DNA of 64,000 nt, taken from positions 3,306 through 67,305 of the forward strand of contig DCRZ01000003.1 of the NCBI GenBank assembly GCA_002325375.1, in the 5' to 3' direction. Both the position numbers and the translations under genes were made by a program. How positions within the stretch are numbered: position 1 is the stretch's first letter; each line of letters begins with the position of its first letter. The notes beneath the pieces are model-generated. The model saw only the letters and a list, made by a program, of their open reading frames with translations. It made no database searches and was not told where the DNA came from. This document shows, piece after piece, positions 11,976 through 35,147 of the stretch. This DNA comes from Rhodospirillaceae bacterium UBA1479. Lineage in GTDB: Bacteria > Pseudomonadota > Alphaproteobacteria > Rhodospirillales > Casp-alpha2.

Positions 11976-13097
11976 TCACTGCTTGCAGTTCATCTGCCGC
12001 TGCTGGCGGGTGGCCGTGCGCTTGAGGGAGCTATTGGCATTGGGGAAATCCGCAAACAGCTTGTCGATGGCCGCACAGCCTTCATTGTTCTGGCCCAGTT
12101 GGCCCAGCGACATGGCCAGCTTCAGCAGGCTGTCCGGCGCCTTGCCGCCCTTGGGGTCCTTTTCGAACCCCTGAAGGAAGACTTCGGCCGCCTTCACGTA
12201 TTCGGCCCGCGCGTAATGGGTTTCACCCAGCCAATAGCGCGCGTTGCTCGAAAGACTGCTGCCATCGTGCTTGCCCAGGAATTCCTTGAAGGCCGCTTCC
12301 GCCTGATCGAACTGGTGTTTGCGCAACAGGTCGAAAGCGAATTTGTACTGTTCCTCGGCCGTGCCGTCCGGCAGCACCGGGCCCTGTACCGCGCTGGACG
12401 GAGGCACGGACGCAGTCTGTTGCGGCGCCTGGACGCGGGTGACGGCGGCCGGGTTGGGGGCACCGGCAGGTGCCGGCATGGGCGCGGCCTGAACCGGCCC
12501 ACCAACGCCCGACGGGGCGGCCTTGGCGCCCCCCGGCTCGGCCGGCGAAGCATCGGATTTGACGAGATTGGGATCGATCTGGCCCAGGGTACCCGCAGGG
12601 CGGCCGATGATGCGGACCTCTCCCGGCGTCGGCGCCGCGTTGGCCTGGGGCCCGGCCGCACCCGGCTGCATGGCCGAGGAAGCCCCCGGCACGCGGCCCT
12701 GCTGTTCCAGCCCGGACAGGCGGAAATCCACATCGGTGACCAAGCGATCGACCCGCGCCGTCAGTTGATCCACGTTGTAGGTCATTTCTTCGATCCGCCC
12801 GGTCACGTCACGCAGTTCGTTTTCCAGCGTATCAAGCCGCACGCCGATGCGCGCCACGGCGTTCTGCGGCAGGTTGGGCATCGGCTCAACCGGTTTGGCG
12901 GCGGCCGGGAGGTCCGCAGCCGGCACGGCACCCGGGCCGCGGACGACCATTTTCGACAAGGTCTGGATATCCCGTTCCAGCCGTTCGAGACGCTGCGACA
13001 GGGCCTGCGCGTCCTGGGCCCGGGCCGGAACGGCGGCAGTCAGAACGGCGGCAAGGCAGAGCGTGGTCAGCGCGGTCGGGAATGTCATCAGACGCAT
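11976..13097 (-). CDS. cpoB: Tol-Pal system protein CpoB/YbgF
   Basis: Signal peptide, coiled coil, C-terminal TPR NARYWLGETHY...KAPDSLLKLAMSL; follows pal. Confidence 0.9.
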   Translation of the reverse strand: MRLMTFPTALTTLCLAAVLTAAVPARAQDAQALSQRLERLERDIQTLSKMVVRGPGAVPAADLPAAAKPVEPMPNLPQNAVARIGVRLDTLENELRDVTGRIEEMTYNVDQLTARVDRLVTDVDFRLSGLEQQGRVPGASSAMQPGAAGPQANAAPTPGEVRIIGRPAGTLGQIDPNLVKSDASPAEPGGAKAAPSGVGGPVQAAPMPAPAGAPNPAAVTRVQAPQQTASVPPSSAVQGPVLPDGTAEEQYKFAFDLLRKHQFDQAEAAFKEFLGKHDGSSLSSNARYWLGETHYARAEYVKAAEVFLQGFEKDPKGGKAPDSLLKLAMSLGQLGQNNEGCAAIDKLFADFPNANSSLKRTATRQQRQMNCKQ

Positions 13098-13201
13098 GGG
13101 AATTCGAGTGTCCCTGTTGTCGCGGTTGAAACGGGCGCGGCAATCCGAAACATCGGTTTCGCGGCCGCAGGCTGAATGCCCGTAATCCCAGGAATTTTAG
13201 G

Positions 13202-13250
13202 CAAAACTAAGGCGCTTGCCCATACCGCAATCCGCGGCCGGACAAGCGCC
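13202..13250 (-). terminator. Possible intrinsic terminator or attenuator after pal
   Basis: GGCGCTTG (13211-13218) / CAAGCGCC (13243-13250) stem, followed on the minus strand by TTAGTTTT. Confidence 0.4.
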
Positions 13251-13279
13251 CTAGAAAGGCTAGACGGTCAGCCCGAAGA

Positions 13280-13780
13280 TCAGGAGCCGGGGCCCGTCAC
13301 GACGGTCACGCCACGGCGGTTCTGCGACCAGGCGGTTTCGTCGGAGCCGAGCGCCACGGGGCGTTCCTCACCGTAGGAGACAGTCTTGATCCGCTTGGCG
13401 TCGATGCCGAGATAGATCAGATATTCTTTCACCGCATTGGCGCGGCGTTCGCCGAGCGCCAAGTTGTATTCCCGCGTGCCGCGTTCGTCGGCATGGCCTT
13501 CGATCGTCACCGTCACGGAGCTGTATTTCTTGAGCCAGGCGGCCTGAACATCCAGGACCTTCTTCTGGTCCTGCTCGACATCGAAGCGGTCGAACGAGAA
13601 GAACACCCGATCACCGACATCAACGACGAACTGATCCTTCAGAGCCAGCGGCGCGGCGGCCGGCAGCGGTGTAATCGACTGGCCAGAACCGGAGGCGCCG
13701 GCGCCCGATCCTGACGTGGATTCGCAGGCCGAAACTGCCAAGGCAAGAGCGGCGACCATTCCGAGAACTTTAAAGCGCAT
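13280..13780 (-). CDS. pal: Peptidoglycan-associated lipoprotein Pal
   Basis: Start trimmed to MRFKVLG. Lipobox VSAC; IEGHADERGTREYNLALGERRANAV. Confidence 0.96.
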   Translation of the reverse strand: MRFKVLGMVAALALAVSACESTSGSGAGASGSGQSITPLPAAAPLALKDQFVVDVGDRVFFSFDRFDVEQDQKKVLDVQAAWLKKYSSVTVTIEGHADERGTREYNLALGERRANAVKEYLIYLGIDAKRIKTVSYGEERPVALGSDETAWSQNRRGVTVVTGPGS

Positions 13781-14001
13781 GTAATCCCCCATTTGTCGGG
13801 TTTTAGTGCATTGCAAATCCGCCGGGGCTGCCGACGGTGAATTCTGCTTGGCCTTATAAAAAAAGGCCGTTCGTGTGATGTATTAACGGTTAAGCGTTCT
13901 GATTCCAAGTACTTTTTAAGTTCAAAGGCGTTCCGAGACCCTGCATTTTTGCATGCGCGAAATGTCTTTTTGTATGATCACTGTCACAACATTTCCGCTT
14001 G

Positions 14002-15402
14002 TCAGGGAATAAGTGGCGACCACGCTGGGTCGGACGCATCCATGGGGGTCGGAATCTCGCGTTCGTTATGCCCGGTCAAGTCAATGGACCACAGCTTCGA
14101 CTGCCCGCCGCTGCCGTCCTTTTCCGACCGGCCCTTGCGATAGAAGATCAACACACGCCCGTTGGGCGACCAGGTCGGCCCCTCGATCTTGAAGTCCTCG
14201 GCCAAAAGCCGTTCTCCCGATCCGTCCGGCTTCATGACGCCGATGAAGAACCGCCCGCCCGACAACTTGGTGAAGGCGATCAGATCGCCGCGCGGCGACC
14301 ACACGGGCGTGGCGTAACGCCCGTTGCCGAAGCTGATACGGCGCACGTTCTTGCCGCGGTCGTCCATCACGTAAAGCTGCTGGCTGCCGCCCCGGTCGGA
14401 GTTGAACACGACCTGATTGGCATCGGGCGAAAAGCTGGGCGAGGTATCGATGGCGGAATGGAACGTCAGCTGCCGCACCACGCGGGTGCGCAGGTCCATG
14501 ACATAGATTTCCGAGTTCCCGTCCTTGGCCATGGACATGATGATCTTCTTGCCGTCCGGCGAGAACCGGGGCGCGAAGGTCATGCCGGGAAAGTCGCCCA
14601 GGACTTCCTGACGGCCCGTGTCGATATTGAAGATATAGACGCGCGGGTTGTTGCGGAAATAGGACATGTAGGTGATTTCCTGCAACGTCGGCGAGAACCG
14701 GGGCGTCAGCACCAGGGTCGTGCCGTCGGTCAGGAAGCGGTGGTTCTCGCCGTCCTGATCCATGATCGCCAGCCGCTTGCCGAACGGGTTCAGGCGGTTG
14801 CGCCCGACCCCCTTGGCGTCCTTGGGCTGTTCCGCGACATAGACGATGCGCGTGTCGAAGTAACCGTCCTCGCCGGTGATGCGCTTGTAGATCGAATCAG
14901 AAATGATATGCGCCACGCGCCGCCAGTTGTCCGGCACGGTGAAATAGGCAAGGCCGATCATCTGCTGTTCCGAGAACACGTCCCACAGGCGGAATTCGAC
15001 GCGCAGCCGCCCGTCGGACACGACCTCGGTCCGGCCCTGGACCAGGGCCTGGGCGTTGATGACGCGCCAATCGCCGAACCGGGGCAACGCGTTGAGCGCC
15101 CCCGCCGACTGGATGAAAGCCTTGGGGTCAATCGGCTTGAACAGGCCGGAGCGTTCAAGGTTGGCGGCGATCACGCCGGCGATCTCGCGCCCGGCCCGGG
15201 CCGCGGCGCCGGATTTGCCGACGAAGTCGGTGACCGCGATGGGCAGCGGTTCAACGTTGCCCCGGGTGATGTCGATGGTGATCTCGGCGCGCGCCGGGCG
15301 GGCGTCGCTCAACGCCGCGGCGAAAGCCAACAGCGCGATCAGCGGGGCAAAGGTCTTCAGTGCGAATTTAGCGGGCATAATCATCGGCCTAATGGTCATC
15401 AC
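14002..15402 (-). CDS. tolB: Tol-Pal beta-propeller protein TolB
   Basis: [16 protein letters not shown], repeated [28 protein letters not shown] blades; exact start uncertain. Confidence 0.96.
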
Positions 15403-16346
15403 AGCATTCCGCTCGGGTCAAATATGAACTTCAGATCGCGCCAGACATGATACTTGTCCGGCGGCAGGTTGAACTTGTTGCAGCGCGGATCCAGAACCGC
15501 ACGGCGGGCCGCCTCGACGGCGACCTGGAAATAACGGTCGGTGAACATGCGGCCCGTGTCCTCGACCTCGACCGACTGCACGGAACCGTCGGGGTTCATG
15601 GTCAGTCGAAGTTCCGGCCTCAGCTTTTCCGCCCCCGGCGCACCATAGGGCGGCGACCAGCACTTGGACACCTGGTTGCGGATCATCGTGCGCCACTGGT
15701 CGATCTCAAGCTGCGATACCTTCTTGTCCGGATCGTACTTGATCGACTTGGAATTGTTCTGCAAGGCCGCCCGGATGCGCGCCATGGTGTCGTCCTTGGG
15801 CGCTTCAGACACTTTCTTCTCCGGCTTTTCCTCGGGCTTGGGCGTCGGCTGCTGCTTGATCTTCTCAAGCGTCTTCAGCACGGAGGCCGTGTCGAAGGTC
15901 GGCTTCTGCGGCTTCTTGGGCTTCTTCGGGACCTCGACTTGGGCCAGTTTCGGTTTGGGCGGCTCCGGCTTTTTCTCGGGCTTGGGTTCCGCTTCCTTCT
16001 TGGGCTCCGGCTCGGGCTTGGGTTCCGGTTTCGCCTTGGGCAGGGGTTCGGGCTCCGCCTCCGGCTTGGGCGGCAGGGCCGCGACCTCCGGCTGCTTGGG
16101 CGTCGGCGGCGCCGGTTTCGGCTTGGGCGGCGTCGGGGGCTTGGGCGGTTCGGCCTTGGCCTCTTTCTTCGGGGTTTCCTGAACCGGGATCGGCGGCGCG
16201 TTGCGCATCTCATCGACGTCGACGATCTCGACGAAGATCGGCTGCTCTTCATGCAACGGCGTGATCTTGTTGAACGGCAGACCAAGCCAAGCAGCCAGCA
16301 CCAAACCCACGTGCAGGGAGACGGATGTGATCAGTGCGGTCCGCAA
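15399..16346 (-). CDS. tolA: TolA (TonB-like energy transducer)
   Basis: N-terminal TM with SxxxH (SVSLH), Pro/Glu/Lys-rich linker, C-terminal CWSPP...AARRAV domain; lies between tolR and tolB. Confidence 0.88.
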
Positions 16347-16357
16347 GGGGCCCCGGC

Positions 16358-16816
16358 TTACTTCTTGGCAGGCGGGCGTTTCGCCGCCTTGCCCGGTTCC
16401 TGCGCGATCAACGCCACACGCCGGTAGCCGGCTGCGTTGATCTGTCCCATCACCGCCATGACACGCCCGTAATTGATGGCCCTATCCCCTCTGACGAAGA
16501 TCCGAATGTCCGGATTGTTACCGGTGATAGCGTGCAATCTTGGCACCAATGTGTCCAAGTCGACGGCCGTGTCCTGAATATAAATCTGCCCGCCGGCGTC
16601 GACGCTGACGGCCAACGGCTCATCCTGGCCGCTGACGGCACCCGCCTTGGTGTCCGGCAGGTCGACCTGAACCCCCACGGTCAGCAGCGGCGCCGTGACC
16701 ATGAAGATGATGAGCAGGACCAACATCACGTCGACGAACGGCGTAACGTTGATGTCGCTCATCAGCGCCCGGTTCTTGCGTCGTCGGCGCGAGGTCCGCT
16801 GTATGGTGACGGCCAC
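16358..16816 (-). CDS. tolR: TolR
   Basis: DINVTPFVDVMLVLLIIFMV; IRGDRAINYGRVMAVM. Confidence 0.95.
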   Translation of the reverse strand: MAVTIQRTSRRRRKNRALMSDINVTPFVDVMLVLLIIFMVTAPLLTVGVQVDLPDTKAGAVSGQDEPLAVSVDAGGQIYIQDTAVDLDTLVPRLHAITGNNPDIRIFVRGDRAINYGRVMAVMGQINAAGYRRVALIAQEPGKAAKRPPAKK

Positions 16817-16833
16817 GTTTCTGTTCCCCCGCC

Positions 16834-17544
<711 letters not shown>

Positions 17545-17569
17545 CTTTGTCCGTCTCGTTCCGTTTTTC

Positions 17570-18007
17570 TTAAGCCTCGCCGCCGACGTCGGCGATCCGG
17601 GCCATTTCAATTCGCACCTCGGCCGGCAGGCGCACGGGCCGTCCGGCCGTGTTCATACAGGCGAGGGTCAGGCTCATCTGCACCAGGTCTTCATCGTCCC
17701 GGCGCACCACTTGGGCCATCTCCACGGTCGCCCCCCGCACCGCCAGCACCCGTGTTTCGACGCTGAGGGCGTCGTCCAGCCGCGCCGGCTTCAGGTATTC
17801 GGCACTGACCCGGCGCACGGCAAGCGCGACGCCCTTCTGCGCCAAAATCGCGGAATTTTCAAATCCCAGTTCACGCAGAAGCTCCGTCCGGGCGCGTTCC
17901 GCATAGCGCAGATAGTTGGCGTAATAGACGATGCCGCCGGCGTCCGTATCCTCGTAATAGACACGCACGGGCATGCGGTGGCAGGGCGTTTCTCCTGTTC
18001 CGATCAC
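17570..18007 (-). CDS. ybgC: Tol-Pal associated acyl-CoA thioesterase
   Basis: [28 protein letters not shown]; lies upstream of tolQ. Confidence 0.93.
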
Positions 18008-25956: not shown

Positions 25957-26526
25957 ATGAAAATCGACGGCAACGCCATTCGACCCGGTATGGTCATCGA
26001 ACATCAGGGACGCCTGTGGCGCGCGGTCAAGATCGCCCATACGCAGCCCGGCAAGGGTGGCGCCTATCTTCAGGTGGAATTGCGCGAACTGCGCGACGGC
26101 ACCAAGCTGAACGAACGCTTCCGCTCGTCGGAAAAGGTCGAACGCGCGACCCTGGAACAGAAGGAATACCAATTCCTGTTTTCCGACGGCGAAATGTTCA
26201 CCTTCATGGACAACGAAAATTACGAACAGGTCGTCCTGAACAGCGATCAGATCGGCGAGGATCAAACCCCCTATCTGCAGGACGGCATGGAAGTGACCAT
26301 CGAAAGCCATGACGGTGACCCGATCGGCGTTCAACTGCCCGACCGGGTGACCCTGACCGTGGTTGAAACCGAAGCCGTGGTCAAAGGCCAGACGGCGGCG
26401 TCGAGCTACAAACCGGCGCTTTTGGACAACGGTGTGCGCACCAGCGTGCCGCCGCATATCGAGACCGGCACCCGCATCGTCGTCAATCCCGCCGAAGGCA
26501 CCTACGTCGAGCGGGCCAAGGACTAG
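25957..26526 (+). CDS. efp: Elongation factor P
   Basis: HTQPGKGGAY, FMDNENYEQ, KGQTAASSYKPA, VPPHI. Confidence 0.97.
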   Translation: MKIDGNAIRPGMVIEHQGRLWRAVKIAHTQPGKGGAYLQVELRELRDGTKLNERFRSSEKVERATLEQKEYQFLFSDGEMFTFMDNENYEQVVLNSDQIGEDQTPYLQDGMEVTIESHDGDPIGVQLPDRVTLTVVETEAVVKGQTAASSYKPALLDNGVRTSVPPHIETGTRIVVNPAEGTYVERAKD

Positions 26527-26579: not shown

Positions 26580-27383
26580 ATGCTGCGCACGCCCCTGATA
26601 AACGTCATGACCGCCGCCGCCCAAAAGGCGGCGCGGGGCCTGATCCGCGATTTCGGTGAGGTCGAACACCTACAGGTCTCGAAGAAGGGACCGGCCGACT
26701 TCGTCTCGACCGCCGACCGCAAGGCCGAGAAGATCCTGTTCGAAGAACTGCAGCGCGCACGGCCCAAATACGGCTTCCTGATGGAGGAACGCGGCGCGGT
26801 CGAGGGCGTCGATACCTCGAATCGCTGGATCATCGATCCCTTGGACGGCACCACCAACTTCCTGCACGGTATTCCCCAGTTCGCCATCTCCATCGGCCTG
26901 GAACGCGATGGTCAGATCTTCGCCGGCGTCGTCTACAACCCGATCACGGACGAGATGTTCGTCGCCGAAAAGGGCCAGGGCGCCTTTCTCAACGGGCGGC
27001 GCCTGCGCGTCTCGGCGCGCCGCGACGTTGCCGAATCCCTGTTCGCGACGGGCATTCCCTTCGTCGGCCGGGGCAACCACGATCTGTTCCTGAACCAGCT
27101 GCGCGCGATCATGGCCGTGTCCGCCGGCGTACGGCGCAACGGTGCGGCCTCGCTTGATCTGGCTTGGGTCGCCGCCGGGCGCTTCGAAGGGTTCTGGGAA
27201 CAGAACCTGCAGCCCTGGGACATGGCAGCAGGCATGATCCTGGTCGCCGAAGCGGGCGGTTTCGTCACTGACCTTTCCGGCGGTCGCGATATCTTCCAGC
27301 GCGGCGACATCGCCGCCGGCAACGACGCCATGCATCCAGTCATGTTGAAAACCCTGGCCGGTGCCGGCGCGGCGGCCACCTAA
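26580..27383 (+). CDS. suhB: Inositol monophosphatase family protein SuhB
   Basis: KGPADFVSTAD, WIIDPLDGTTNFLHG, WEQNLQPWDMAAG. Confidence 0.94.
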   Translation: MLRTPLINVMTAAAQKAARGLIRDFGEVEHLQVSKKGPADFVSTADRKAEKILFEELQRARPKYGFLMEERGAVEGVDTSNRWIIDPLDGTTNFLHGIPQFAISIGLERDGQIFAGVVYNPITDEMFVAEKGQGAFLNGRRLRVSARRDVAESLFATGIPFVGRGNHDLFLNQLRAIMAVSAGVRRNGAASLDLAWVAAGRFEGFWEQNLQPWDMAAGMILVAEAGGFVTDLSGGRDIFQRGDIAAGNDAMHPVMLKTLAGAGAAAT

Positions 27384-27642
27384 CCCCATTCTCGCCTCGC
27401 CGAAGGGCTGTTTCCAGTCGCCCCGAAAGCGTCATATTTAGCTGATTTCATACAAGGGCTTTACGGTTGTCCAGCGCATCGCCGTTGGTTAAGGTGATCG
27501 CCTTGGTTTCCGCCGCAGGCCGGAGGGTCCCCGGACCGTCCCGGCGGCGGAATGCCAAGCCTGCCGCAAACGGGATACACATACCCGAACACGACAACGG
27601 GCCGGAAGACGACAACAGGGAAGAATGGGGAGTGACCGTCCG

Positions 27643-28635
27643 ATGACATCCTCACGTTTTTTGACCGGGCTTTTGGTCATTGCCGTGGCGCCGCTGGCGC
27701 TGGCATCAGGCCCGGTCGAGGCACAGGTGAGCAACTACGCGGACGGTGCCGTGACCATCGACATGGGCGCCCTGCCCGGCGGCGGATACGGCCACACCGT
27801 GGACATATCGTCGGAACCGGCCGCTCCCGCCTATGGGGGCGGACTGCGCCTGCCGGGCGCCAGCCGACCGACCTCTCAGTTGTTCGTCGCCCCTGAAAAA
27901 TCTGTCCCCATCCGCAAGTTGAGGGTGACTCGCGCCGAAGCCGCGCCGGCCCCCCGCGCCAGCCGCATGGAAACGGAGATGCGCCCGCCCGCCGCCAAGG
28001 CGCCGCCGCCGCCCATGCCGTCGAAACCATCACCCGCGCCGGCCCCCGCCGCCGATGCCCCGGCACAGTTGACGGCCAGCGCGCCGACGCCGCCCGCCGC
28101 ACCGACGCCCCCCGGCACGCAAATAGCCGATGCGCCGCCGCCCGCCCCCAAGGCCGAGGCCGTGAAGGACACCGCGGACAAGGTACCCCCGCCGCCCCCG
28201 CCAGCAACCGCTCCGGGTGCCGCCGTTCCGCCGCCCCCGCCGCCGCCCGCCACGGCCATGGCGGTGCCCACGCCGCCGGAGCCCAAGGCGGAAAGCACCG
28301 CGTCCCTGACCACCGGCGAAGATGGTCGGCTAATCCGCGTGGTGTTTGACGAAAGCCAGTCGAAACTGCCCGAAACCGCCAAGCCGAACCTGCTCAAGCT
28401 GGCCGATCAGGTAAAAAACCAGCGCGACGTGCGGCTGCAGCTTCAGGCCTATGCCGGGGGTGAAGACCTGAAATCCAACCGGGCCCGCCGCCTGTCCCTG
28501 TCCCGCGCCCTTTCCGTGCGCTCTTTCCTGATCGAAAGCGGCATCCGCTCGACCCGGATCGATGTACGGGCTCTCGGCGACAAGACCTCCGACGAGCCCA
28601 AGAACCGGGTCGACATCACCCTGGCCCCGCGTTGA
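27643..28635 (+). CDS. Exported proline-rich protein with a C-terminal OmpA-like domain
   Basis: Start trimmed to MTSSRFL. Signal-like LLVIAVAPLALASGPVEA; long Pro/Ala linker; VVFDESQSKL...QLQAYAG...RLSLSRALSVRSFLIESGI...RIDVRALG...NRVDI. Confidence 0.8.
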   Translation: MTSSRFLTGLLVIAVAPLALASGPVEAQVSNYADGAVTIDMGALPGGGYGHTVDISSEPAAPAYGGGLRLPGASRPTSQLFVAPEKSVPIRKLRVTRAEAAPAPRASRMETEMRPPAAKAPPPPMPSKPSPAPAPAADAPAQLTASAPTPPAAPTPPGTQIADAPPPAPKAEAVKDTADKVPPPPPPATAPGAAVPPPPPPPATAMAVPTPPEPKAESTASLTTGEDGRLIRVVFDESQSKLPETAKPNLLKLADQVKNQRDVRLQLQAYAGGEDLKSNRARRLSLSRALSVRSFLIESGIRSTRIDVRALGDKTSDEPKNRVDITLAPR

Positions 28636-28698
28636 CGGCACCGTCGGGTTCCGCGTGACGTCCGTGCCTCCGAAAGGACCTCGTAAGGGCTTCCCTAC

Positions 28699-29805
28699 AT
28701 GACGCGCCCCAACCGATACCTGTTCAGGATGATCCTGTTCCTCGGCGCTGTTCTCGCCGTCTGCGCCCCCCTGTTCCAGCCGCTGCGCGACGCCTTTCTG
28801 GCCAACGCGCCCCTGAACGGCGGCATCCTGGCCGTGCTGGCCCTGGGCATCGCCTACAATTTCCTGCAGGTCGCGCGCCTGAAGCCCGAGGTCGAATGGG
28901 TGGACAGCTACCGCCGTGACGGTGCGCAGTTGTCACAGCCGAGCCCGCCCCGCCTGCTCGGCCCCATGGCAAGCATGCTCGGCCAGCGTTCCGGCCGCCT
29001 GACACTCTCGACCACATCGCTGCGCACCTTGCTTGACGGTCTGGTTTCGCGCCTTGACGAATCGCGCGATATTTCGCGCTACATCATCGGCCTGCTGATC
29101 TTCCTGGGATTGCTCGGCACCTTCTGGGGGCTTCTCGAAACGGTTGCCTCGGTCAAGGACGTGATCGTTGGCCTGACCGTCGATGGCGGCGACATCAATG
29201 GGACGTTCGAAAAGCTGAAACACGGCCTGGAAACGCCATTGTCCGGCATGGGCACGGCCTTTTCATCATCCCTGTTCGGGTTGTCGGGCTCGCTCATCCT
29301 GGGCTTCCTCGACCTACAGGCCGGCCAAGCGCAGAACCGTTTCTACAATGATCTGGAAGAGTGGCTGTCGAGCCTGACCCGCCTGTCGTCGGGGGCCCTT
29401 TCCGGCGACGGCGATCAGTCCATGCCCGCCTATGTGCAGGCACTGCTGGAACAATCGGCGGAAAACCTGGAGAATTTACAGCGCACCCTGTCACGCGGTG
29501 AGGAAAGCCGCGCCGAAGCCAACCAAGGCATCCTGGCCCTGACCGACAAACTGGACACCCTGACCGACCACCTGCGTGCGCAGCAGCAGCTGATGAAGGA
29601 CATGGCCCAGAGCATGAACCGGAGCGACGGCGGTGGCATGGATGCGGAAACCAGGACCAGCATCCGCAACCTGGACCGCGCCGTGACCCGTCTGGCCGAC
29701 GACGTCAGCCATGGCCGCGACGAAATCATCAAGGAAGTGCGGTCCGAAATCAAACTTCTGGCCCGCACCATGGCCAACATCGCCGACGGCGAATATGACC
29801 GCTGA
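28699..29805 (+). CDS. MotA/TolQ/ExbB-type ion channel protein with a long C-terminal helical tail
   Basis: Four hydrophobic segments; LIFLGLLGTFWGL and LSGMGTAFSSSLFGL channel helices; about 164-residue polar tail after residue 204. Confidence 0.85.
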   Translation: MTRPNRYLFRMILFLGAVLAVCAPLFQPLRDAFLANAPLNGGILAVLALGIAYNFLQVARLKPEVEWVDSYRRDGAQLSQPSPPRLLGPMASMLGQRSGRLTLSTTSLRTLLDGLVSRLDESRDISRYIIGLLIFLGLLGTFWGLLETVASVKDVIVGLTVDGGDINGTFEKLKHGLETPLSGMGTAFSSSLFGLSGSLILGFLDLQAGQAQNRFYNDLEEWLSSLTRLSSGALSGDGDQSMPAYVQALLEQSAENLENLQRTLSRGEESRAEANQGILALTDKLDTLTDHLRAQQQLMKDMAQSMNRSDGGGMDAETRTSIRNLDRAVTRLADDVSHGRDEIIKEVRSEIKLLARTMANIADGEYDR

Positions 29806-29871
29806 CGCCGTGACGCCGGCTCTCTGCCCCCGTCACATCCCAGCGGCCCCCCGGCAAGGGAAGACGTAACC

Positions 29872-31107
29872 ATGGCCAGCCTCGCCAGGCGCCACGAACG
29901 ATCAACCAACATCTGGCCCGGCTTCGTCGACGCCCTGGCGACGCTGCTGATGGTCATCATCTTCCTGTTGCTGATCTTCATCATGGCCCAGGTCTTTCTG
30001 GGGCAGGCATTGACCGGGCGCGATCAGGCGCTGCGTAAGCTGGAGGGCGAAATCAGCGAACTGGCGAGCCTATTGGCCCTGGAACGCAAAACCACGGACA
30101 GCCTGCGCGCCGATGTCAGCCGCCTGTCGAGTGAACTGGAAGTCTCGGTCGGCGAACGCGAACGGTTGAGCGCCAGCGTTGCCGGACTGCGCATGCGCGC
30201 GGAATCGGCGGAACAGCAGCTTGTCGATGCCATGGTCTCCATGGAAGCCAGCCGCCAGACCATCGGCCGCCTGGAAACTTCGTTGGCGGACACCAAAAAG
30301 ACGCTCGCGGTCCGCGAGGAGGAACTGGCCGACCGGGTGCAGCGGCTCAACAACCTGGCACGCGAGATCGAGGCCCTGACGGCGCTTCGCGACGAGTTGA
30401 CCGCGAAGGTCATGGAGCTCGGCAAACAGGCCAATGAAAAAGGCGAGGCGCTGATCAACGAGCGCAACATTTCGGAATCCGCCCGCGCCCAGGTCGCCCT
30501 GATGAACCGCCAATTGGCGGCGCTTCGCGAACAGTTGGCGACGCTCGAGGCGACGCTCCGCGCGGCCGAGGAAAAGGCCCAGTCGCAGGGCGTGCAGATC
30601 GAAAGCCTGGGCAAGCGGCTTAACGCCGCGCTGGCATCCAAGGTTCAGGAACTCAGCCGCTACCGCTCGGAATTCTTTGGCCGCCTGCGCGAGGTTCTCG
30701 GCAACCGTCCCGGCATCCGCATCGTCGGCGACCGCTTCGTGTTCCAATCGGAGGTGCTGTTCGACGTCGCCTCGGCTGAATTGGGCCCGGCGGGCAAGGA
30801 ACAGATGGGCGCACTGGCCCAGACCCTCAAGGAACTGGTCGTGAAAATCCCCGAGGACATCGACTGGGTGCTCCGCGTCGACGGGCATACAGATAAAACG
30901 CCCATTTCCACGGCCCGTTTCCCCTCCAACTGGGAATTGTCGGCGGCGCGCGCCATCTCCGTGGTCAAATACCTGATCGACCAGGGACTGCCTCCCGTGC
31001 GTCTGGTCGCCGCCGGGTTCGCAGCCAACCGGCCCATTGACCCCGGCGTCGACGAAATCGCGCTTCGGCGAAACCGCCGGATCGAACTCAAACTGACCCA
31101 GCGCTGA
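29872..31107 (+). CDS. MotB/OmpA family peptidoglycan-binding membrane protein with a long coiled coil
   Basis: IWPGFVDALATLLMVIIFLL TM with Asp20; heptad-rich middle; VDGHTD...SNWELSAARAISVVKYL...RNRRIE. Confidence 0.9.
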   Translation: MASLARRHERSTNIWPGFVDALATLLMVIIFLLLIFIMAQVFLGQALTGRDQALRKLEGEISELASLLALERKTTDSLRADVSRLSSELEVSVGERERLSASVAGLRMRAESAEQQLVDAMVSMEASRQTIGRLETSLADTKKTLAVREEELADRVQRLNNLAREIEALTALRDELTAKVMELGKQANEKGEALINERNISESARAQVALMNRQLAALREQLATLEATLRAAEEKAQSQGVQIESLGKRLNAALASKVQELSRYRSEFFGRLREVLGNRPGIRIVGDRFVFQSEVLFDVASAELGPAGKEQMGALAQTLKELVVKIPEDIDWVLRVDGHTDKTPISTARFPSNWELSAARAISVVKYLIDQGLPPVRLVAAGFAANRPIDPGVDEIALRRNRRIELKLTQR

Positions 31108-31120
31108 TCGGCCAACCAGA

Positions 31121-32326
31121 ATGCTCGCTATTTTCCTGATCGTCGTCGTCGATCTTATCGGTTTCGGTATCATCATTCCGTTGCTGCCGTTTTACGGCGA
31201 GCATTTCCAGGCCGACCCGCAGACCGTGGGCCTGCTGATGGCGACCTATTCCCTGGCACAGTTCATTTCCGCCCCCCTGTGGGGACGGCTCAGCGATCAT
31301 GCCGGACGGCGCCCGGTCCTGCTCCTTAGCCTCGCCGGGGCGGCCGCGGCCTATGTCTGGCTGGCCTTTGCCGATGCGCTGTGGATGCTGTTCATGGCGC
31401 GCGCCCTGGGCGGCCTGATGGCCGGCAACATATCCGCCGCCTTCGCCTATATGGCCGACATCACGACCAAGGAGAACCGCGCCAAGGGCATGGGCCTGAT
31501 CGGCGCCGCCTTCGGCATCGGCTTCATCCTGGGCCCCGCCATCGGCGGCATCCTGGCCGGACCGGACCCGCTGACCGCCGATTACCGCAGCCCGGCCCTG
31601 GCCGCCGCCGGCCTGTCCCTGTTCGCCCTTCTGCTCGGTATCGTAAGACTGCCGGAGTCCCTGTCGGCCGAGGTCCGCGCCCGCGCGGCTGCGATGCCGC
31701 GCCGGCGGCGTATGTCGCAGTTCGCGGATGCCCTAAGACTGCCTGGGGTGGGACTGCTGATGCTGCTGGGGTTCCTCGCGACCTTCGTGTTCGCGGGCCT
31801 GGAAACCACCTTCGCCATGTGGTCCCGGCGCGCCTTCGACTGGGGCCCGGAACAGAACGGCTGGTTGTTCGCCTATGTCGGGGTGCTGTCGGCGGCGGTC
31901 CAGGGCGGCCTGATGGGGCGCCTCGCCAAGCGCTATGGCGAACGGGCCTTGCTGATCCAGGGGGCGGTCGCCCTCGCCCTCGGCATCGGCGCCATCCCCT
32001 TCTGCACCGAAGTCTGGCACCTGCTGATTGCCATGGCTGTTGCGGCCTACGGCTTCAGCGTCATTAACCCTGCCTACAACAGTTTGATTTCCCAACAGGT
32101 TCCCGACACGGACCAGGGCGGCGTGATGGGCGTGACACGGTCGGTGACGACCATGGCACGCGTCCTCGGCCCGGCCTGGGCAGGCGTGCTGTTCGCCCAG
32201 ATCGGGCGGGACTGGCCCTATTACTCAGGCGCCCTGGTGATGGCGGCGGTGCTGCTCCTTGCCCTCGCCATTCCGGCTGGATTGCGCCCCGCCCCATCAT
32301 CACAGACGGACGGCGACCCCCGTTGA
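31121..32326 (+). CDS. MFS transporter, TetA/DHA1-like
   Basis: DLIGFGIIIPLLP, GRLSDHAGRRPVLL (motif A), GFILGPAIGG (motif C); about 12 hydrophobic segments. Confidence 0.9.
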   Translation: MLAIFLIVVVDLIGFGIIIPLLPFYGEHFQADPQTVGLLMATYSLAQFISAPLWGRLSDHAGRRPVLLLSLAGAAAAYVWLAFADALWMLFMARALGGLMAGNISAAFAYMADITTKENRAKGMGLIGAAFGIGFILGPAIGGILAGPDPLTADYRSPALAAAGLSLFALLLGIVRLPESLSAEVRARAAAMPRRRRMSQFADALRLPGVGLLMLLGFLATFVFAGLETTFAMWSRRAFDWGPEQNGWLFAYVGVLSAAVQGGLMGRLAKRYGERALLIQGAVALALGIGAIPFCTEVWHLLIAMAVAAYGFSVINPAYNSLISQQVPDTDQGGVMGVTRSVTTMARVLGPAWAGVLFAQIGRDWPYYSGALVMAAVLLLALAIPAGLRPAPSSQTDGDPR

Positions 32327-33064: not shown

Positions 33065-33290
33065 CCGTGCACAATTCCTGGGATAAGGCGGTTAAAATCA
33101 ACCCCTCCCATAGCATGAACAGCTATGCTAACTTTTATGCAATCGGGTAGGGAAATGTTTACCTGCCCGCATCAAAATTGCTCTTCTGGGAAGTACCGAA
33201 ACATCCGGTAGCCCCGTTCGACCGGGGAAGGCGACCTGCGGCTACAACGGTAATTCGGTCTGATTAATGGGGAGCGGCTGGGTAACGGCC

Positions 33291-35147
33291 ATGGCAAGAC
33301 ACATTCATTTCGAGGTCCACGTGCAGCAGGCCGGCCGCTGGTCGATTCATGCCCAGTTCGGCGCCGCGCAACGTGAAAAGGCCATCGAAGAAGCCAAGAA
33401 GATCGAGAAGACGCCCGGTTTCGATGCCGTCAAGGTGGTCAAGGAAACCTATGACAGCGATATCGGCAACCACCAGGACACGACGATCTATCGTGGTCCC
33501 AAAGGCGCCGAGGAACACAAGGGCTTTCGCGACATCGGTGGCGGAAAGGCTGACGGCGGCGGTGGCGGCGACTGGTCCATGTCGCGCGGTGACGACGACG
33601 ATGATGATTACGACGATGACGACGACGCGCCGAAAAAGCGCCGCGCCGCAAGCAATGCCAACAGCATCACCGCGACGGCGACGGCGGTCGTCATCAAGAT
33701 GCTCATGCTGGCTTTGGTCAGCCTGCTGGTGTCCGGTGGTTTCGCGGTCGCCTTTTCCTGGTACTTCAGCGGCAAGATGCTGTTCGGCTACAAAATTTCC
33801 GGCACGGTCGAAGCCAACGCCATCTTCCTGGTGTTTGTCTCCAGCTTCCTTCTGACCGCTTCGACCCTAGCGGTCACCTATCTCCGGAATATTCGGCTCA
33901 AGGGACGGCAGGCATCCGGCAGTATGCCCATGCAACAGACAGCCGGCGGCACCAGTGTGGCCTCCATCCTCGACCGGGCGGCATCGGCATTGGGGCAACC
34001 GCCGGCAAATACCCTGGAAGTCGACACGGAAAAGCCGGAAGGCACGGTCGGTGATTGGCGCGAACAGGCCAAGGCCGAAGAGGCGGCGCGCGGCGAGACC
34101 GACGACGCCGCCAACCAGCGCCTGCGCGAGGAACTGGAGAACGACGAGACCAAGCGCGGCGTGACCCTGGAAGCCGACAAGTACGGCGGCGGTCAGGAAC
34201 CGCAACCCATGCTCGACGCCGCCGGCGAAAAGCAGAAGGCCTACATGATGAAGTTCCTGGGCCAGCTTCTCGACGTCACCGGCCAGGACAAGAAAAAGCT
34301 CGATAACTTCACCAAATTCGGGATCAACCTGTTCCTCGCCGGTGCTTGTGAATCCCTGTCGTCAAAACGCGATCTGGAACCTTCGACGCGGTCCCGCATT
34401 CTGGCCGACAGCGTCCAGGTCATGGGCTTCAAAAAATCCCATGCCGCGTCCTTCGCCGACCGCTACGAGGAATACCTGCTGCAGGATTCCCGCTACATGA
34501 GCATGTTCCAGGCGGGCCGCAACGCCATGGCCAACCACCTGACCGACAACGCCTCGGGCCCGTCTCACCTGAAAACGGCGCTGGAAGACTGGAACAAGCC
34601 GAAGCCGAAGGAAGCCCAGGCGCGGGTCGTCGCCGTGCTGTTCACGGACATCGCCGGATCCACCGCGCTGACCCAGGAATTGGGCGACGCCGGGGCCCAG
34701 GAAGTCGTGCGCGCCCACAACAAGATCGTGCGCGAGAACCTGACCCGCTACCACGGCCGCGAGGTCAAGCACACGGGCGACGGCATGATGTGTTCCTTCG
34801 ACCAGCCGACCAACGCGGTCGAGGCGTCGATCGAAATCCAAAAGGAAACCATTCAGCTGCGGTCTTCCAACCCCAACCTGCCGCTCAAGCTGAAGATCGG
34901 CATCAACGCGGGCGAGCCCATCGCCGAGGACAACGACCTGTTCGGCACCACGGTGCAGCTTGCCGCGCGGATCGTCGACAAGGCCCAAGCGGACCAGATC
35001 TTCGTGTCGGAAACCGTGCGTGGCATCTGCACCGGCAAGGGCATTTCCTTCAAATCCGCGGGCGGCTACGCCATGAAGGGATTCGACGGGGACGTCAATC
35101 TGTACGAGGTCATGTGGCAGTCCGGCAACGCGGCCAAGGCCTCTTAA
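33291..35147 (+). CDS. Membrane-anchored class III adenylate/guanylate cyclase domain protein
   Basis: C-terminal VLFTDIAGSTAL, VKHTGDGMM, GINAGEP, DLFGTTVQLAARI; two TM helices after an Asp-rich tract; unknown N-terminal and central domains. Confidence 0.85.
   Translation: MARHIHFEVHVQQAGRWSIHAQFGAAQREKAIEEAKKIEKTPGFDAVKVVKETYDSDIGNHQDTTIYRGPKGAEEHKGFRDIGGGKADGGGGGDWSMSRGDDDDDDYDDDDDAPKKRRAASNANSITATATAVVIKMLMLALVSLLVSGGFAVAFSWYFSGKMLFGYKISGTVEANAIFLVFVSSFLLTASTLAVTYLRNIRLKGRQASGSMPMQQTAGGTSVASILDRAASALGQPPANTLEVDTEKPEGTVGDWREQAKAEEAARGETDDAANQRLREELENDETKRGVTLEADKYGGGQEPQPMLDAAGEKQKAYMMKFLGQLLDVTGQDKKKLDNFTKFGINLFLAGACESLSSKRDLEPSTRSRILADSVQVMGFKKSHAASFADRYEEYLLQDSRYMSMFQAGRNAMANHLTDNASGPSHLKTALEDWNKPKPKEAQARVVAVLFTDIAGSTALTQELGDAGAQEVVRAHNKIVRENLTRYHGREVKHTGDGMMCSFDQPTNAVEASIEIQKETIQLRSSNPNLPLKLKIGINAGEPIAEDNDLFGTTVQLAARIVDKAQADQIFVSETVRGICTGKGISFKSAGGYAMKGFDGDVNLYEVMWQSGNAAKAS

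What the first reader, a model, noticed from the sequence alone, without database searches (positions are those of the whole stretch)
27643..31107. Orphan MotAB/ZorAB-like ion motor with a TonB-like Pro-rich partner: candidate undescribed envelope machine
Seen: three co-oriented genes with about 65-bp gaps and no flagellar, TonB-receptor or defence genes nearby; a complete Tol-Pal system is encoded separately at 11976-18007. Gene 2 has the channel helices GLLGT141FWG and GMGT186AF plus a polar tail of about 164 residues. Gene 3 has WPGFVD20A, one TM, roughly 220 residues of coiled coil and a canonical GHTD...SNWELS..RA domain. Gene 1 is an exported Pro-rich rod ending in an OmpA-like domain. 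Knowledge: two Thr residues on the A subunit and an Asp on the B subunit form the ion path of 5:2 motors (MotAB, ExbBD, TolQR, ZorAB); a long A-subunit tail with a peptidoglycan-bound B subunit is the ZorAB layout. Inference: a housekeeping ion-driven motor with a periplasm-spanning stalk and an unknown load. I recall similar gene pairs next to efp-suhB in other alphaproteobacteria but know of no assigned function.
Basis: partly seen in the sequence, partly recalled or inferred. Interest (0 to 1): 0.72.

Follow-up and report, generated by a model that had tools for sequence, protein, structure and literature searches.

The report
Uncharacterised ZorAB-like ion motor of Alphaproteobacteria
Two adjacent genes, usually with a third, encode a widespread alphaproteobacterial relative of the proton-driven motors behind flagella, Tol/Ton and Zorya phage defence; it is anchored to the cell wall by a long coiled-coil stalk and has no published function.

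Summary
There are three co-oriented genes at 27643-31107, with housekeeping neighbours and a separate, complete Tol-Pal cluster.

- **Gene 2** is a remote member of the MotA/ExbB/TolQ superfamily, and ZorA is its closest described family. It has four predicted TM helices, the TolQ-type FLGLLGT141FWGL helix, and a conserved cytoplasmic tail of 162 residues.
- **Gene 3** is the B subunit. It carries the WPGFVD20 motif in its single TM helix, which runs straight into about 230 residues of heptad-regular periplasmic coiled coil. It ends in a MotB-type peptidoglycan-binding domain.
- **Gene 1** is a secreted accessory protein, not a TonB-like one. It has a signal peptide, a conserved VTIDxxAL motif, a Pro-rich spacer and a divergent OmpA-like domain. 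Many lineages lack it.

The A-B pair is adjacent in 80 of 80 related loci, mostly behind efp-suhB. It occurs in at least 579 species-level genomes, including Sinorhizobium meliloti (by inference SMc03993/SMc03992). Marine metatranscriptome contigs cover it.

I found no defence or flagellar context and no paper on its function. The best reading is a housekeeping, peptidoglycan-anchored ion motor of the 5:2 type with an unknown load. Stoichiometry, rotation and physiological role are untested. I class it as a new variant of a known kind.

The parts
27643..28635 (+). g1: secreted Pro-rich accessory protein with an OmpA-like C-terminus (an alternative start lies at 27625)
   Evidence: ORF. The only hydrophobic segment is residues 2-27; 16.7% Pro. 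OmpA PF00691, E 1.8e-11. Equivalents lie upstream of the A gene in most Rhodospirillales/Acetobacteraceae loci, and their stop codon often overlaps the A start.
27751..27774 (+). g1 conserved N-terminal motif VTIDMGAL (family consensus VTVDLSVL / VTIDLRAL), just after the signal peptide
   Evidence: Translation. The same motif is found in 24 or more related loci. Its role as a docking strand is inference.
27931..28287 (+). g1 Pro-rich spacer (about residues 97-215, up to 15 Pro per 30 residues)
   Evidence: Composition by 30-residue blocks. Its length and sequence are not conserved among loci.
28345..28590 (+). g1 divergent OmpA-like domain (LSLSRA kept; GHTD replaced by AGGED)
   Evidence: Pfam stretch 241-322 of the 336-aa form. 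27% identity to the g3 PG-binding domain.
28699..29805 (+). g2: A subunit, a remote MotA/ExbB/TolQ/ZorA-superfamily protein with four predicted TM helices
   Evidence: PADLOC ZorA1 E 3.9e-15; Pfam MotA_ExbB 18.1 bits, below the 22.9 cutoff. hhalign against the window's own TolQ, E 5e-5. Foldseek top hits are ExbB/TolQ/ZorA, from a low-confidence model. Hydropathy and charge distribution.
29080..29154 (+). g2 TM3, channel helix YIIGLLIFLGLLGT141FWGLLET148VASV
   Evidence: Translation. Aligns to TolQ FIGLFGTVWGI. T141 is invariant in 255/255 family members and T148 in 245/255.
29248..29316 (+). g2 TM4, channel helix MGT186AFSSS191LFGLSGSLILGFLD205L
   Evidence: Translation. S191 253/255, T186 207/255, D205 219/255.
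29317..29802 (+). g2 cytoplasmic helical tail (residues 207-368; conserved YVQALLEQ and RSEIKLLART blocks)
   Evidence: Alignments A1 and A2. AF2 helices 166-234, 244-306 and 316-362. The cytoplasmic location follows from the predicted topology (inference).
29872..31107 (+). g3: B subunit (TM with Asp, then coiled coil, then a MotB-type PG-binding domain)
   Evidence: NCBIfam PRK09039.1-2, 454.5 bits against a cutoff of 305. PADLOC ZorB3 E 2.5e-28. AF2 model pLDDT 72.6.
29914..29997 (+). g3 TM helix WPGFVD20ALATLLMVIIFLLLIFIMAQVF (the D20 codon is 29929-29931)
   Evidence: Translation. WPGFVD is present in 119/120 homologues. Same pattern as the window's TolR, TPFVDVMLVLLIIF.
29998..30699 (+). 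g3 periplasmic coiled coil (helix 43-187, hinge 188-201, helix 202-276)
   Evidence: AF2 shows one continuous helix 15-187 and a second helix 202-276. The heptad register is unbroken from residue 43 to about 155. Indels among relatives lie at about residues 105-150, and close relatives differ by whole heptads.
30757..31077 (+). g3 OmpA/MotB-type peptidoglycan-binding domain (GHTD, NWELSxxRA)
   Evidence: PF00691 E 6.6e-16. PDB sequence hits MotS/MotB/PomB. Foldseek MotS 5.7e-10, H. pylori MotB TM-score 0.74 normalised to the target.
31121..32326 (+). MFS transporter gene 13 nt downstream; possibly co-transcribed, not a core part
   Evidence: PF07690 E 8e-59. Metatranscriptome contigs span the g3-MFS junction. 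It follows g3 only in the nearer relatives (12 of 80 loci).

Best explanation
g2 and g3 encode the A and B subunits of a chromosomal, vertically inherited ion-conducting membrane complex. It belongs to the MotA/ExbB/TolQ/ZorA superfamily, the '5:2 motors'. It is neither the flagellar stator, nor the Tol or Ton motor, nor a Zorya defence system.

**Shown**
- A has the TolQ/ExbB-type channel helices with invariant polar residues (T141, T148, S191).
- B has one TM helix with a nearly invariant Asp (D20).
- That helix continues without a break into a heptad-regular coiled coil and ends in a MotB-type peptidoglycan-binding domain.
- The two genes are always adjacent in the main clade.
- The family is spread across Alphaproteobacteria in housekeeping neighbourhoods, and the genes are covered by metatranscriptome contigs.

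**Inferred**
- The complex assembles as A5B2.
- Protons pass via D20 and the Thr/Ser residues.
- B2 is held to the cell wall as a rigid stalk.
- Ion flow turns the A ring, with its conserved 162-residue cytoplasmic tails, around B. That is the ZorAB/MotAB logic, and it would place the output on the cytoplasmic or membrane side.
- g1 is a secreted, lineage-variable accessory protein (docking motif, Pro-rich spacer, OmpA-like domain). It probably helps or modulates wall attachment in the periplasm.

**Guess, low confidence**
- The physiological role is cell-envelope upkeep or envelope-state sensing, rather than motility, nutrient import or phage defence.
For: **A subunit**
- All 48 aligned relatives hit ZorA models (best E 5.5e-17), and 38 of 48 hit Pfam MotA_ExbB at E <= 0.01.
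- hhalign against the window's TolQ gives E 5e-5 and aligns both channel helices.
- The Foldseek top 30 are ExbB, TolQ and ZorA chains.
- T141 255/255, T148 245/255, S191 253/255.

**B subunit**
- NCBIfam PRK09039.1-2 is above its cutoff, and ZorB3 scores E 2.5e-28.
- WPGFVD in 119/120 homologues.
- AF2 gives a continuous helix 15-187 and an OmpA-like fold that matches MotS/MotB/PomB.
- Heptad register is unbroken from residue 43 to about 155.

**Linkage and spread**
- A and B are adjacent in 80/80 loci, with efp-suhB upstream in most.
- At least 579 species-level genomes carry the family.
- 2729 clusters at 50% identity reach E <= 1e-3.
- S. meliloti has the pair in the same thiE...suhB-A-B...rpmE context, at 42-43% identity.

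**Housekeeping context**
- Neighbouring genes are housekeeping.
- The plasmid collection gave hits only on megabase-sized, non-mobilizable Sinorhizobium/Shinella records. The best is labelled pSymB but is 3.72 Mb and has chromosomal content.

**Expression**
- Metatranscriptome contigs span the g1-g2, g2-g3 and g3-MFS junctions.
Against: - Stoichiometry, ion conduction and rotation are not tested.
- The g2 monomer model is poor (pLDDT 59). Its fold matches have weak E-values (0.015) and TM-scores of 0.25-0.45.
- The window protein itself falls below Pfam's MotA_ExbB cutoff, and no PDB chain is found by sequence or by profile.
- In a distant Paracaedibacteraceae-like subfamily the A gene stands alone, with no B gene within 5-6 kb in four contexts. 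A may therefore work with an unlinked B, or differently.
- B length varies from 332 to 995 aa, which is hard to fit to a simple fixed stalk between membrane and wall.
- Nothing points directly to the load or the phenotype. The S. meliloti orthologues are absent from the essential-gene lists that are held as text, so the function may be conditional.
Confidence: 0.62

Rival explanations
1. A static inner-membrane-to-wall tether or gated ion channel rather than a rotary motor. The B dimer would be a structural coiled-coil strut fixed to peptidoglycan. A would be its membrane socket or a regulated proton leak, with no mechanical output.
For: Long periplasmic coiled coil plus a PG-binding domain. 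No recognisable load or partner is encoded nearby. Coil length is very variable.
Against: The ion-path residues of both subunits are invariant over 255 and 120 diverse members, which a passive strut would not need. Every characterised relative of this superfamily converts ion flow into movement (established knowledge; PMC11946911, PMC12204202).
Confidence: 0.15
2. A Tol/Ton-like force transducer in which g1 is the TonB/TolA-like arm pulled by the motor.
For: g1 has a Pro-rich spacer of about 120 residues like TonB. It often overlaps the A gene start, which suggests coupled translation. It has a conserved N-terminal motif that could dock onto a partner.
Against: g1 has a signal-peptide-like N-terminus as its only hydrophobic segment, so no membrane anchor to sit beside the A ring. 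It has no TonB_C domain; its C-terminus is OmpA-like. It is absent where suhB directly precedes A (for example L012, L036, L040) and in S. meliloti. The spacer length of g1 does not co-vary positively with B length (rho -0.42, n = 24).
Confidence: 0.08
3. A Zorya-type anti-phage sensor core (ZorAB) whose effectors are encoded elsewhere or are unknown.
For: ZorA and ZorB models are among the best HMM matches of known function. A has a C-terminal helical tail and B binds peptidoglycan, as in Zorya.
Against: No ZorC/D/E/F/G or any other defence gene is nearby. Synteny with efp-suhB is stable across orders, including S. meliloti, which is the opposite of a defence island. The NCBIfam ZorA models score far below their cutoffs (15.3 against 100). 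The tail is 162 aa, and B has a 230-residue coil where ZorB has no linker. The family was not found on mobilizable plasmids.
Confidence: 0.05
4. A second flagellar stator, as the NCBI name 'flagellar motor protein MotA' implies.
For: Names given by NCBI and JGI. A has the four-TM MotA topology. The B PG-binding domain is closest to MotS/MotB/PomB.
Against: No NCBIfam MotA model matches g2. The MotB/MotS/MotD models match only the C-terminal domain of g3, at 50-101 bits against cutoffs of 250-312. The loop between TM2 and TM3 is about 65 residues and shows no hit to MotA's cytoplasmic domain. There are no flagellar genes nearby. The A gene also occurs in genomes that carry ATP/ADP translocase genes, i.e. 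endosymbiont-like genomes.
Confidence: 0.05

Closest known systems
ZorAB, the membrane core of Zorya anti-phage systems (types I-III)
   Same: ZorA is the best HMM match of the A subunit (ZorA1 and ZorA3 models hit 48/48 relatives). ZorB3 (97.1 bits) is among the best matches of known function for B, just behind the MotD model (100.8 bits). Both systems have an A subunit with a helical cytoplasmic C-terminal tail and a B subunit with a TM Asp and a dimer-type PG-binding domain.
   Different: - Four predicted TM helices here, against three in ZorA.
- Tail of 162 aa here, against about 500 aa in E. coli ZorA.
- B carries about 230 residues of periplasmic coiled coil, whereas ZorB's PG-binding domain is fused to the TM helix without a linker.
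- No effector genes.
- Fixed housekeeping synteny and vertical inheritance.
- NCBIfam ZorA cutoffs are not reached.
TolQR and ExbBD (the Tol-Pal and Ton motors)
   Same: The channel helix motif FLGLLGTFWGL matches TolQ FIGLFGTVWGI. The post-TM4 segment AQNRFYNDLEEW matches TolQ AYNKFSRDLDRY. The B-subunit motif PGFVDALATLL matches TolR TPFVDVMLVLL. ExbB and TolQ are the top fold hits.
   Different: - A complete Tol-Pal system is encoded separately in the same window.
- There is no TolA/TonB-type anchored transducer.
- B ends in a MotB-type OmpA-like domain, not a TolR/ExbD periplasmic domain.
- A has an extra N-terminal TM helix and a long tail.
MotAB/PomAB/MotPS flagellar stators
   Same: A has a four-TM topology. 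B has a TM Asp and an OmpA-like PG-binding domain that is closest in sequence and fold to MotS/MotB/PomB.
   Different: - No MotA-type torque-generating cytoplasmic domain, and no match to the MotA models.
- No flexible plug-and-linker of the MotB kind; the helix runs continuously from the TM into the coil.
- No flagellar gene context.
GldLM/PorLM (gliding / type IX secretion motor)
   Same: By analogy only: a 5:2 motor whose B-type subunit carries a long rod into the periplasm (established knowledge; cited in PMC12204202).
   Different: No sequence relation was tested or seen. The GldM rod is made of globular domains and has no PG-binding domain. Here the rod is a coiled coil that ends in a wall anchor.
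NCBIfam PRK09039 'peptidoglycan-binding protein' (equivalog models without assigned function)
   Same: g3 scores 454.5 bits against a cutoff of 305 for PRK09039.1-2. This is the database family to which it belongs.
   Different: The model carries only a generic name. No function, partner or mechanism is attached to it, and two text hits for 'PRK09039' were irrelevant.

Membership tests
MotA/ExbB/TolQ proton-channel superfamily (A subunit) | Match to Pfam PF01618 above the gathering score | tested here: not met
   g2 scores 18.1 bits against a cutoff of 22.9. 38 of 48 close relatives match at E <= 0.01, best 7e-5. Some distant relatives carry a precomputed PF01618 hit.
MotA/ExbB/TolQ proton-channel superfamily (A subunit) | The two C-terminal channel helices with the G-x-x-G-T-x-W-G motif and a conserved Thr/Ser on the last helix | tested here: met
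   hhalign against the window's TolQ gives E 5e-5 over both helices. T141 255/255 and S191 253/255.
MotA/ExbB/TolQ proton-channel superfamily (A subunit) | Fold similar to solved A subunits | tested here: inconclusive
   The top Foldseek hits are ExbB, TolQ and ZorA with probabilities up to 0.97. However, E is 0.015, TM-scores are 0.25-0.45 and the model pLDDT is 59.
5:2 motor B subunit (MotB/ExbD/TolR/ZorB) | A single N-terminal TM helix with a conserved Asp, encoded directly downstream of A | tested here: met
   D20 lies in WPGFVD, present in 119/120 homologues. A and B are adjacent in 80/80 loci.
5:2 motors in general | A5B2 stoichiometry and ion-driven rotation | not testable with these tools
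   Only single-chain structure prediction is available.
Zorya (ZorAB plus effectors) | ZorA/ZorB family models above curated cutoffs | tested here: not met
   NCBIfam antiphage_ZorA_2 scores 15.3 bits against a cutoff of 100, and ZorA_4 scores 12.5 against 500. The PADLOC ZorA1 hit (53.6 bits) covers only profile positions 105-256 of 683.
Zorya (ZorAB plus effectors) | Adjacent effector genes (ZorC/D, ZorE, or ZorF/G), in the variable or mobile genomic context typical of defence systems | tested here: not met
   PADLOC finds nothing for g1, and only ZorA/ZorB-type matches plus weak matches to coiled-coil-rich proteins (LmuB, JetC and similar) for g2 and g3. The neighbours are housekeeping genes. 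The synteny is conserved across orders.
Zorya (ZorAB plus effectors) | Very long ZorA tail, and a ZorB PG-binding domain fused to the TM helix without a linker (PMC11946911) | tested here: not met
   The tail is 162 aa. B has about 230 helical residues between the TM helix and the PG-binding domain.
Flagellar stator MotAB/PomAB | Match to MotA and MotB equivalog models; flagellar gene context | tested here: not met
   No MotA model matches g2. The MotB/MotS/MotD models reach 50-101 bits against cutoffs of 250-312, on the C-terminal domain only. No flagellar genes lie within about 10 kb on either side.
TonB/TolA force transducers (proposed for g1) | N-terminal TM anchor that docks on the motor, and a C-terminal TonB/TolA domain | tested here: not met
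   The only hydrophobic segment of g1 is a signal-peptide-like N-terminus (residues 2-27), followed by an Ala-rich putative cleavage region. The C-terminus is OmpA-like, and there is no TonB_C hit.
NCBIfam PRK09039 peptidoglycan-binding protein | Score above the curated cutoff of the equivalog model | tested here: met
   454.5 bits against 305 for PRK09039.1-2, and 389.2 against 372 for PRK09039.1-4.
OmpA-like / MotB-type peptidoglycan-binding domain (g3) | PF00691 above cutoff, with the GxTD and NxxLSxxRA motifs and the matching fold | tested here: met
   58.9 bits against 27.2. DGHTD and NWELSAARA are invariant in alignment A3. Foldseek MotS 5.7e-10. Actual PG binding was not tested.

The most novel reading that the evidence does not exclude
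This is the housekeeping, vertically inherited sister of the Zorya motor. It would be a wall-anchored rotary sensor or actuator that couples the state of the peptidoglycan and periplasm to the cytoplasm, through its rigid TM-to-coiled-coil B shaft and the conserved A tail. Alternatively, in GldLM fashion, it would do mechanical work on the wall or on the wall-bound g1 protein. Either way it would be a fifth physiological use of 5:2 motors, beside motility, Tol/Ton, gliding/T9SS and phage defence, and a likely evolutionary source of ZorAB.
Probability: 0.2. Interest if true: 0.85.

Novelty: new variant of a known kind. Interest (0 to 1): 0.6.

Why it matters
Ion-driven 5:2 motors are known to power flagella, Tol-Pal, TonB-dependent uptake, gliding/T9SS and Zorya defence. 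Recent surveys say explicitly that further uses remain to be found (PMC12204202).

This family is large: at least 579 species-level genomes and thousands of protein clusters. It is strongly conserved and expressed, and it is present in tractable models such as Sinorhizobium meliloti and Azospirillum.

Databases file it only under generic or wrong names ('peptidoglycan-binding protein', 'flagellar motor protein MotA').

Its architecture is not that of any described motor. It combines a TM helix continuous with a long periplasmic coiled coil on B, a short conserved tail on A, and an optional secreted Pro-rich OmpA-like partner.

Finding its load would add a new function to this motor class. It could also show where the Zorya sensor came from.

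Tried and rejected
1. **Rgs proteins.** I suspected the pair might be RgsA/B/C, the rhizobial growth and septation proteins of S. meliloti. The paper shows that RgsB, RgsC and the others are different proteins. Only a neighbourhood link remains: rgsF (SMc03995) lies two genes upstream of the S. meliloti pair.
2. **Literature.** Searches on ZorAB, stator phylogeny, MotA/TolQ/ExbB plus OmpA/MotB, MotAB-like, PRK09039 and locus tags found no functional study. The two PRK09039 hits were irrelevant. The RL4036/RL4037 guesses for R. leguminosarum failed: RL4036 is cheY3, so synteny differs there.
3. **PDB sequence and profile searches with g2.** These gave only coiled-coil noise.
4. **AF2 monomer of g2.** The model is low confidence (pLDDT 59), so I use its fold matches only as weak support.
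5. **The listing of cluster members on distant representatives.** It gave no taxon names.
6. **Promoter/terminator scan and Rfam scan of 24.5-33.5 kb.** Nothing rose above background.
7. **Shared-distance test.** I checked whether the g1 spacer and the B coil span the same distance. There is no positive co-variation (Spearman rho -0.42, n = 24, not corrected for phylogeny).
8. **Periplasmic ruler.** A ruler of fixed length is weakened by B lengths of 332-995 aa across orders.

Full report
**1. What is in the sequence.**
Three + strand ORFs lie at 27625/27643-28635 (g1), 28699-29805 (g2) and 29872-31107 (g3), separated by 63 and 66 bp. An MFS transporter gene starts 13 nt after g3. Upstream lie GAPDH, a thiE-like gene, efp (25957-26526) and suhB (26580-27383). 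Downstream lie the MFS gene, a CyaY-like gene, rpmE and an adenylate cyclase.

A complete cpoB-pal-tolB-tolA-tolR-tolQ cluster sits at 11976-17610 on the minus strand. No flagellar, TonB-receptor or defence gene lies within about 10 kb.

**2. Gene 2, the A subunit.**
Standard libraries barely recognise it.
- Pfam MotA_ExbB scores 18.1 bits, below the 22.9 cutoff.
- NCBIfam gives only faint ZorA hits.
- PDB sequence and profile searches return only coiled-coil noise.

Homology to the 5:2 motor A subunits is nevertheless well supported.
- PADLOC ZorA1 scores E 3.9e-15 over residues 123-293.
- All 48 aligned relatives hit several ZorA models (best 5.5e-17), and 38 of 48 hit Pfam MotA_ExbB at E <= 0.01.
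- A profile of the family aligns to the window's own TolQ at E 5e-5. FLGLLGTFWGL lies on TolQ FIGLFGTVWGI, and AQNRFYNDLEEW lies on AYNKFSRDLDRY.
- Even a poor AF2 monomer (pLDDT 59) retrieves ExbB, TolQ and ZorA as its top fold hits.

Over 255 diverse family members, T141 is invariant, T148 is found in 245 and S191 in 253.

Hydropathy and charge distribution indicate four TM helices with the N-terminus inside. There is a basic cytoplasmic loop of about 65 residues, an acidic periplasmic loop of about 30 residues, and a cytoplasmic helical tail of 162 residues with strongly conserved blocks.

**3. Gene 3, the B subunit.**
It passes the curated cutoff of NCBIfam PRK09039.1-2, named 'peptidoglycan-binding protein' (454.5 bits against 305). 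It also matches ZorB3 (E 2.5e-28), and it matches the MotD/MotS/MotB models on its C-terminal domain only.

The N-terminus carries WPGFVD20ALATLL. This is the same pattern as TolR TPFVDVMLVLL in this window, and it is present in 119 of 120 homologues.

The AF2 model (pLDDT 72.6) has:
- one uninterrupted helix from residue 15 to 187, so the TM helix continues directly into the periplasmic rod;
- a low-confidence hinge at 188-201;
- a second helix at 202-276;
- an OmpA-like domain whose best fold matches are the MotS, MotB and PomB periplasmic domains.

The heptad register is unbroken from residue 43 to about 155.

Among close relatives, B lengths form a ladder of 390, 397, 404, 411, 418, 425, 432 and 439 aa. 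103 of the 120 best hits have a length of 5 mod 7, although 43 of them are 411-aa near-identical proteins. All indels sit in the middle of the first helix. Across orders, B ranges from 332 to 995 aa.

**4. Gene 1.**
It has a signal-peptide-like N-terminus as its only hydrophobic segment, followed by a short motif, VTIDMGAL. Then come a Pro-rich stretch (up to 15 Pro in 30 residues) and a divergent OmpA-like domain (PF00691, E 1.8e-11), which is 27% identical to the g3 domain.

Equivalents stand upstream of the A gene in most Rhodospirillales and Acetobacteraceae loci. They have the same build and the motif VTVDLSVL / VTIDLRAL, and their stop codon often overlaps the A start.

Several lineages lack it, with suhB directly preceding A, and so does S. 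meliloti. g1 is therefore a frequent accessory and not a core part. It fails every defining feature of TonB/TolA.

**5. Distribution and context.**
- An exhaustive search finds 2729 clusters at 50% identity with E <= 1e-3, and 579 with E <= 1e-30.
- A pattern scan of one genome per species confirms at least 579 genomes. The best 80 include Rhodospirillales, Acetobacteraceae, Azospirillum, Thalassospira, Kiloniella, Dongia, Defluviicoccus and others.
- In all 80, B follows A. efp-suhB lies upstream in most loci that are long enough to show it.
- A megabase-sized Sinorhizobium record in the plasmid collection revealed the S. meliloti pair, in the order thiE - sel1 repeat gene - suhB - A (42% identity) - B (43% identity) ... 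rpmE.

By coordinates and gene order I infer that A is SMc03993 and B is SMc03992.
- The sel1 gene is SMc03995 (RgsF). It is in an operon with thiE2 and carries Sel1-like repeats.
- sRNA sm84 lies between SMc03988 and SMc03989 at 2.9865 Mb.
- A ChvI-bound fragment at 2991422-2991677 is assigned to SMc03993.

A distant subfamily at 36-41% identity includes Paracaedibacteraceae. It keeps the channel residues, but its A gene is solitary in four contexts, one of them directly after murG-murC-murB-ddl-ftsQ.

**6. Expression.**
Contigs of four marine biofilm metatranscriptomes, from a strain about 96% identical, cover the locus. They span the g1-g2, g2-g3 and g3-MFS junctions, and one runs from suhB into g2. 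This fits an expressed operon, but DNA carry-over in such libraries cannot be excluded.

**7. How it most likely works.**

*Shown:* an A/B gene pair of the 5:2 motor superfamily, with intact ion-path residues, a MotB-type wall anchor on B, and conserved housekeeping synteny.

*Inferred from the solved relatives (MotAB, ExbBD, TolQR, ZorAB):*
- Five A subunits surround two B TM helices.
- Protons pass via D20 and the Thr/Ser ring.
- With B2 fixed to peptidoglycan, the A ring turns.

Here the B helices leave the ring as one rigid helix each, and presumably pair as a parallel coiled coil. The heptad-quantised indels fit a register that must be kept along a continuous rod. The conserved A tail is then the most likely output element, as in Zorya. 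A GldLM-like alternative, with B acting as a turning or twisting shaft on the wall or on g1, is not excluded.

The load is unknown. The context points to an envelope-related role, but only weakly: the family is widely conserved and chromosomal, and the S. meliloti pair lies near rgsF and contains a ChvI-bound fragment.

**8. Comparison and novelty.**
ZorAB is the closest described family by HMM score, but three of its defining features are not met: curated cutoffs, effector genes with a defence context, and tail/linker architecture. TolQR/ExbBD share the channel motifs but not the partner proteins. MotAB shares the B anchor and the A topology but not the torque domain or the gene context.

Database names exist for the family: PRK09039, and 'flagellar motor protein MotA', which is probably a misannotation. 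I found no paper on its function. I class it as a new variant of a known kind.

The S. meliloti orthologues do not appear in the held lists of essential genes, so a conditional phenotype is likely.

**9. Limits.**
No multimer modelling was possible, and no structure coordinates were available for measuring the B hairpin geometry. I had no whole genomes to search for unlinked B genes or for canonical stators. The locus-tag assignment in S. meliloti 1021 is inferred from coordinates and was not read from an annotation.

Noticed in passing
window 30184-30321 (g3 residues about 105-150) and homologues P0121-P0240: B-subunit lengths among close relatives form a heptad ladder (390, 397, 404, 411, 418, 425, 432, 439 aa). 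103 of the 120 best hits have a length of 5 mod 7, though 43 of them are 411-aa near-identical proteins. All indels lie in the centre of the first periplasmic helix. Across orders the ladder dissolves and lengths run from 332 to 995 aa.
   Followed up: partly
L081-L086 (Paracaedibacteraceae-like and related metagenome contigs): A distant subfamily of the A subunit (36-41% identity, channel residues kept) is encoded alone, with no B gene within 5-6 kb. In L084/L085 it directly follows murG-murC-murB-ddl-ftsQ. In L083/L086 it sits next to an ATP/ADP translocase gene.
   Followed up: partly
L087 (S. meliloti CP090106.1, 3078088-3093092): The S. meliloti A-B pair lies two genes downstream of the sel1-repeat gene SMc03995 (RgsF, an essential polar-growth/septation factor). 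By coordinates, a ChvI-bound DNA fragment (F10, PMC3687685) falls inside the A gene. Both are leads towards an envelope role and are not evidence of one.
   Followed up: partly
PLSDB record CP090106.1: The record is titled 'plasmid pSymB' but is 3.72 Mb long and carries chromosomal genes (rpmE, purE, purK, suhB, thiE). It looks like a mislabelled chromosome. The three 3.52 Mb Sinorhizobium sp. records and the 4.6 Mb Shinella record in the plasmid collection are probably the same kind of case.
   Followed up: no
window 31121-32326: An MFS transporter gene starts 13 nt after g3, and metatranscriptome contigs span the junction. It follows the pair in only 12 of 80 related loci.
   Followed up: partly
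window 33267-35147: An adenylate/guanylate cyclase has an N-terminal region containing a run of Asp residues (DDDDDDYDDDDD) and hydrophobic segments. It lies just after rpmE. In S. meliloti a cyclase (cyaF2, SMc03985) also lies a few genes from rpmE and the A-B pair.
   Followed up: no
homologue names: NCBI and JGI name the A subunit 'flagellar motor protein MotA' and the B subunit 'chemotaxis protein MotB' in many genomes. No MotA/MotB equivalog model supports this, so the names are probably misannotations that could inflate counts of flagellar stators in Alphaproteobacteria.
   Followed up: partly
window 28097-28137 (g1 Pro-rich region): The metatranscriptome strain differs from the window by several small indels (2, 1 and 3 bases left out; CGCCGC put in) within the Pro-rich spacer of g1. 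That fits a fast-evolving linker of loosely constrained length.
   Followed up: no
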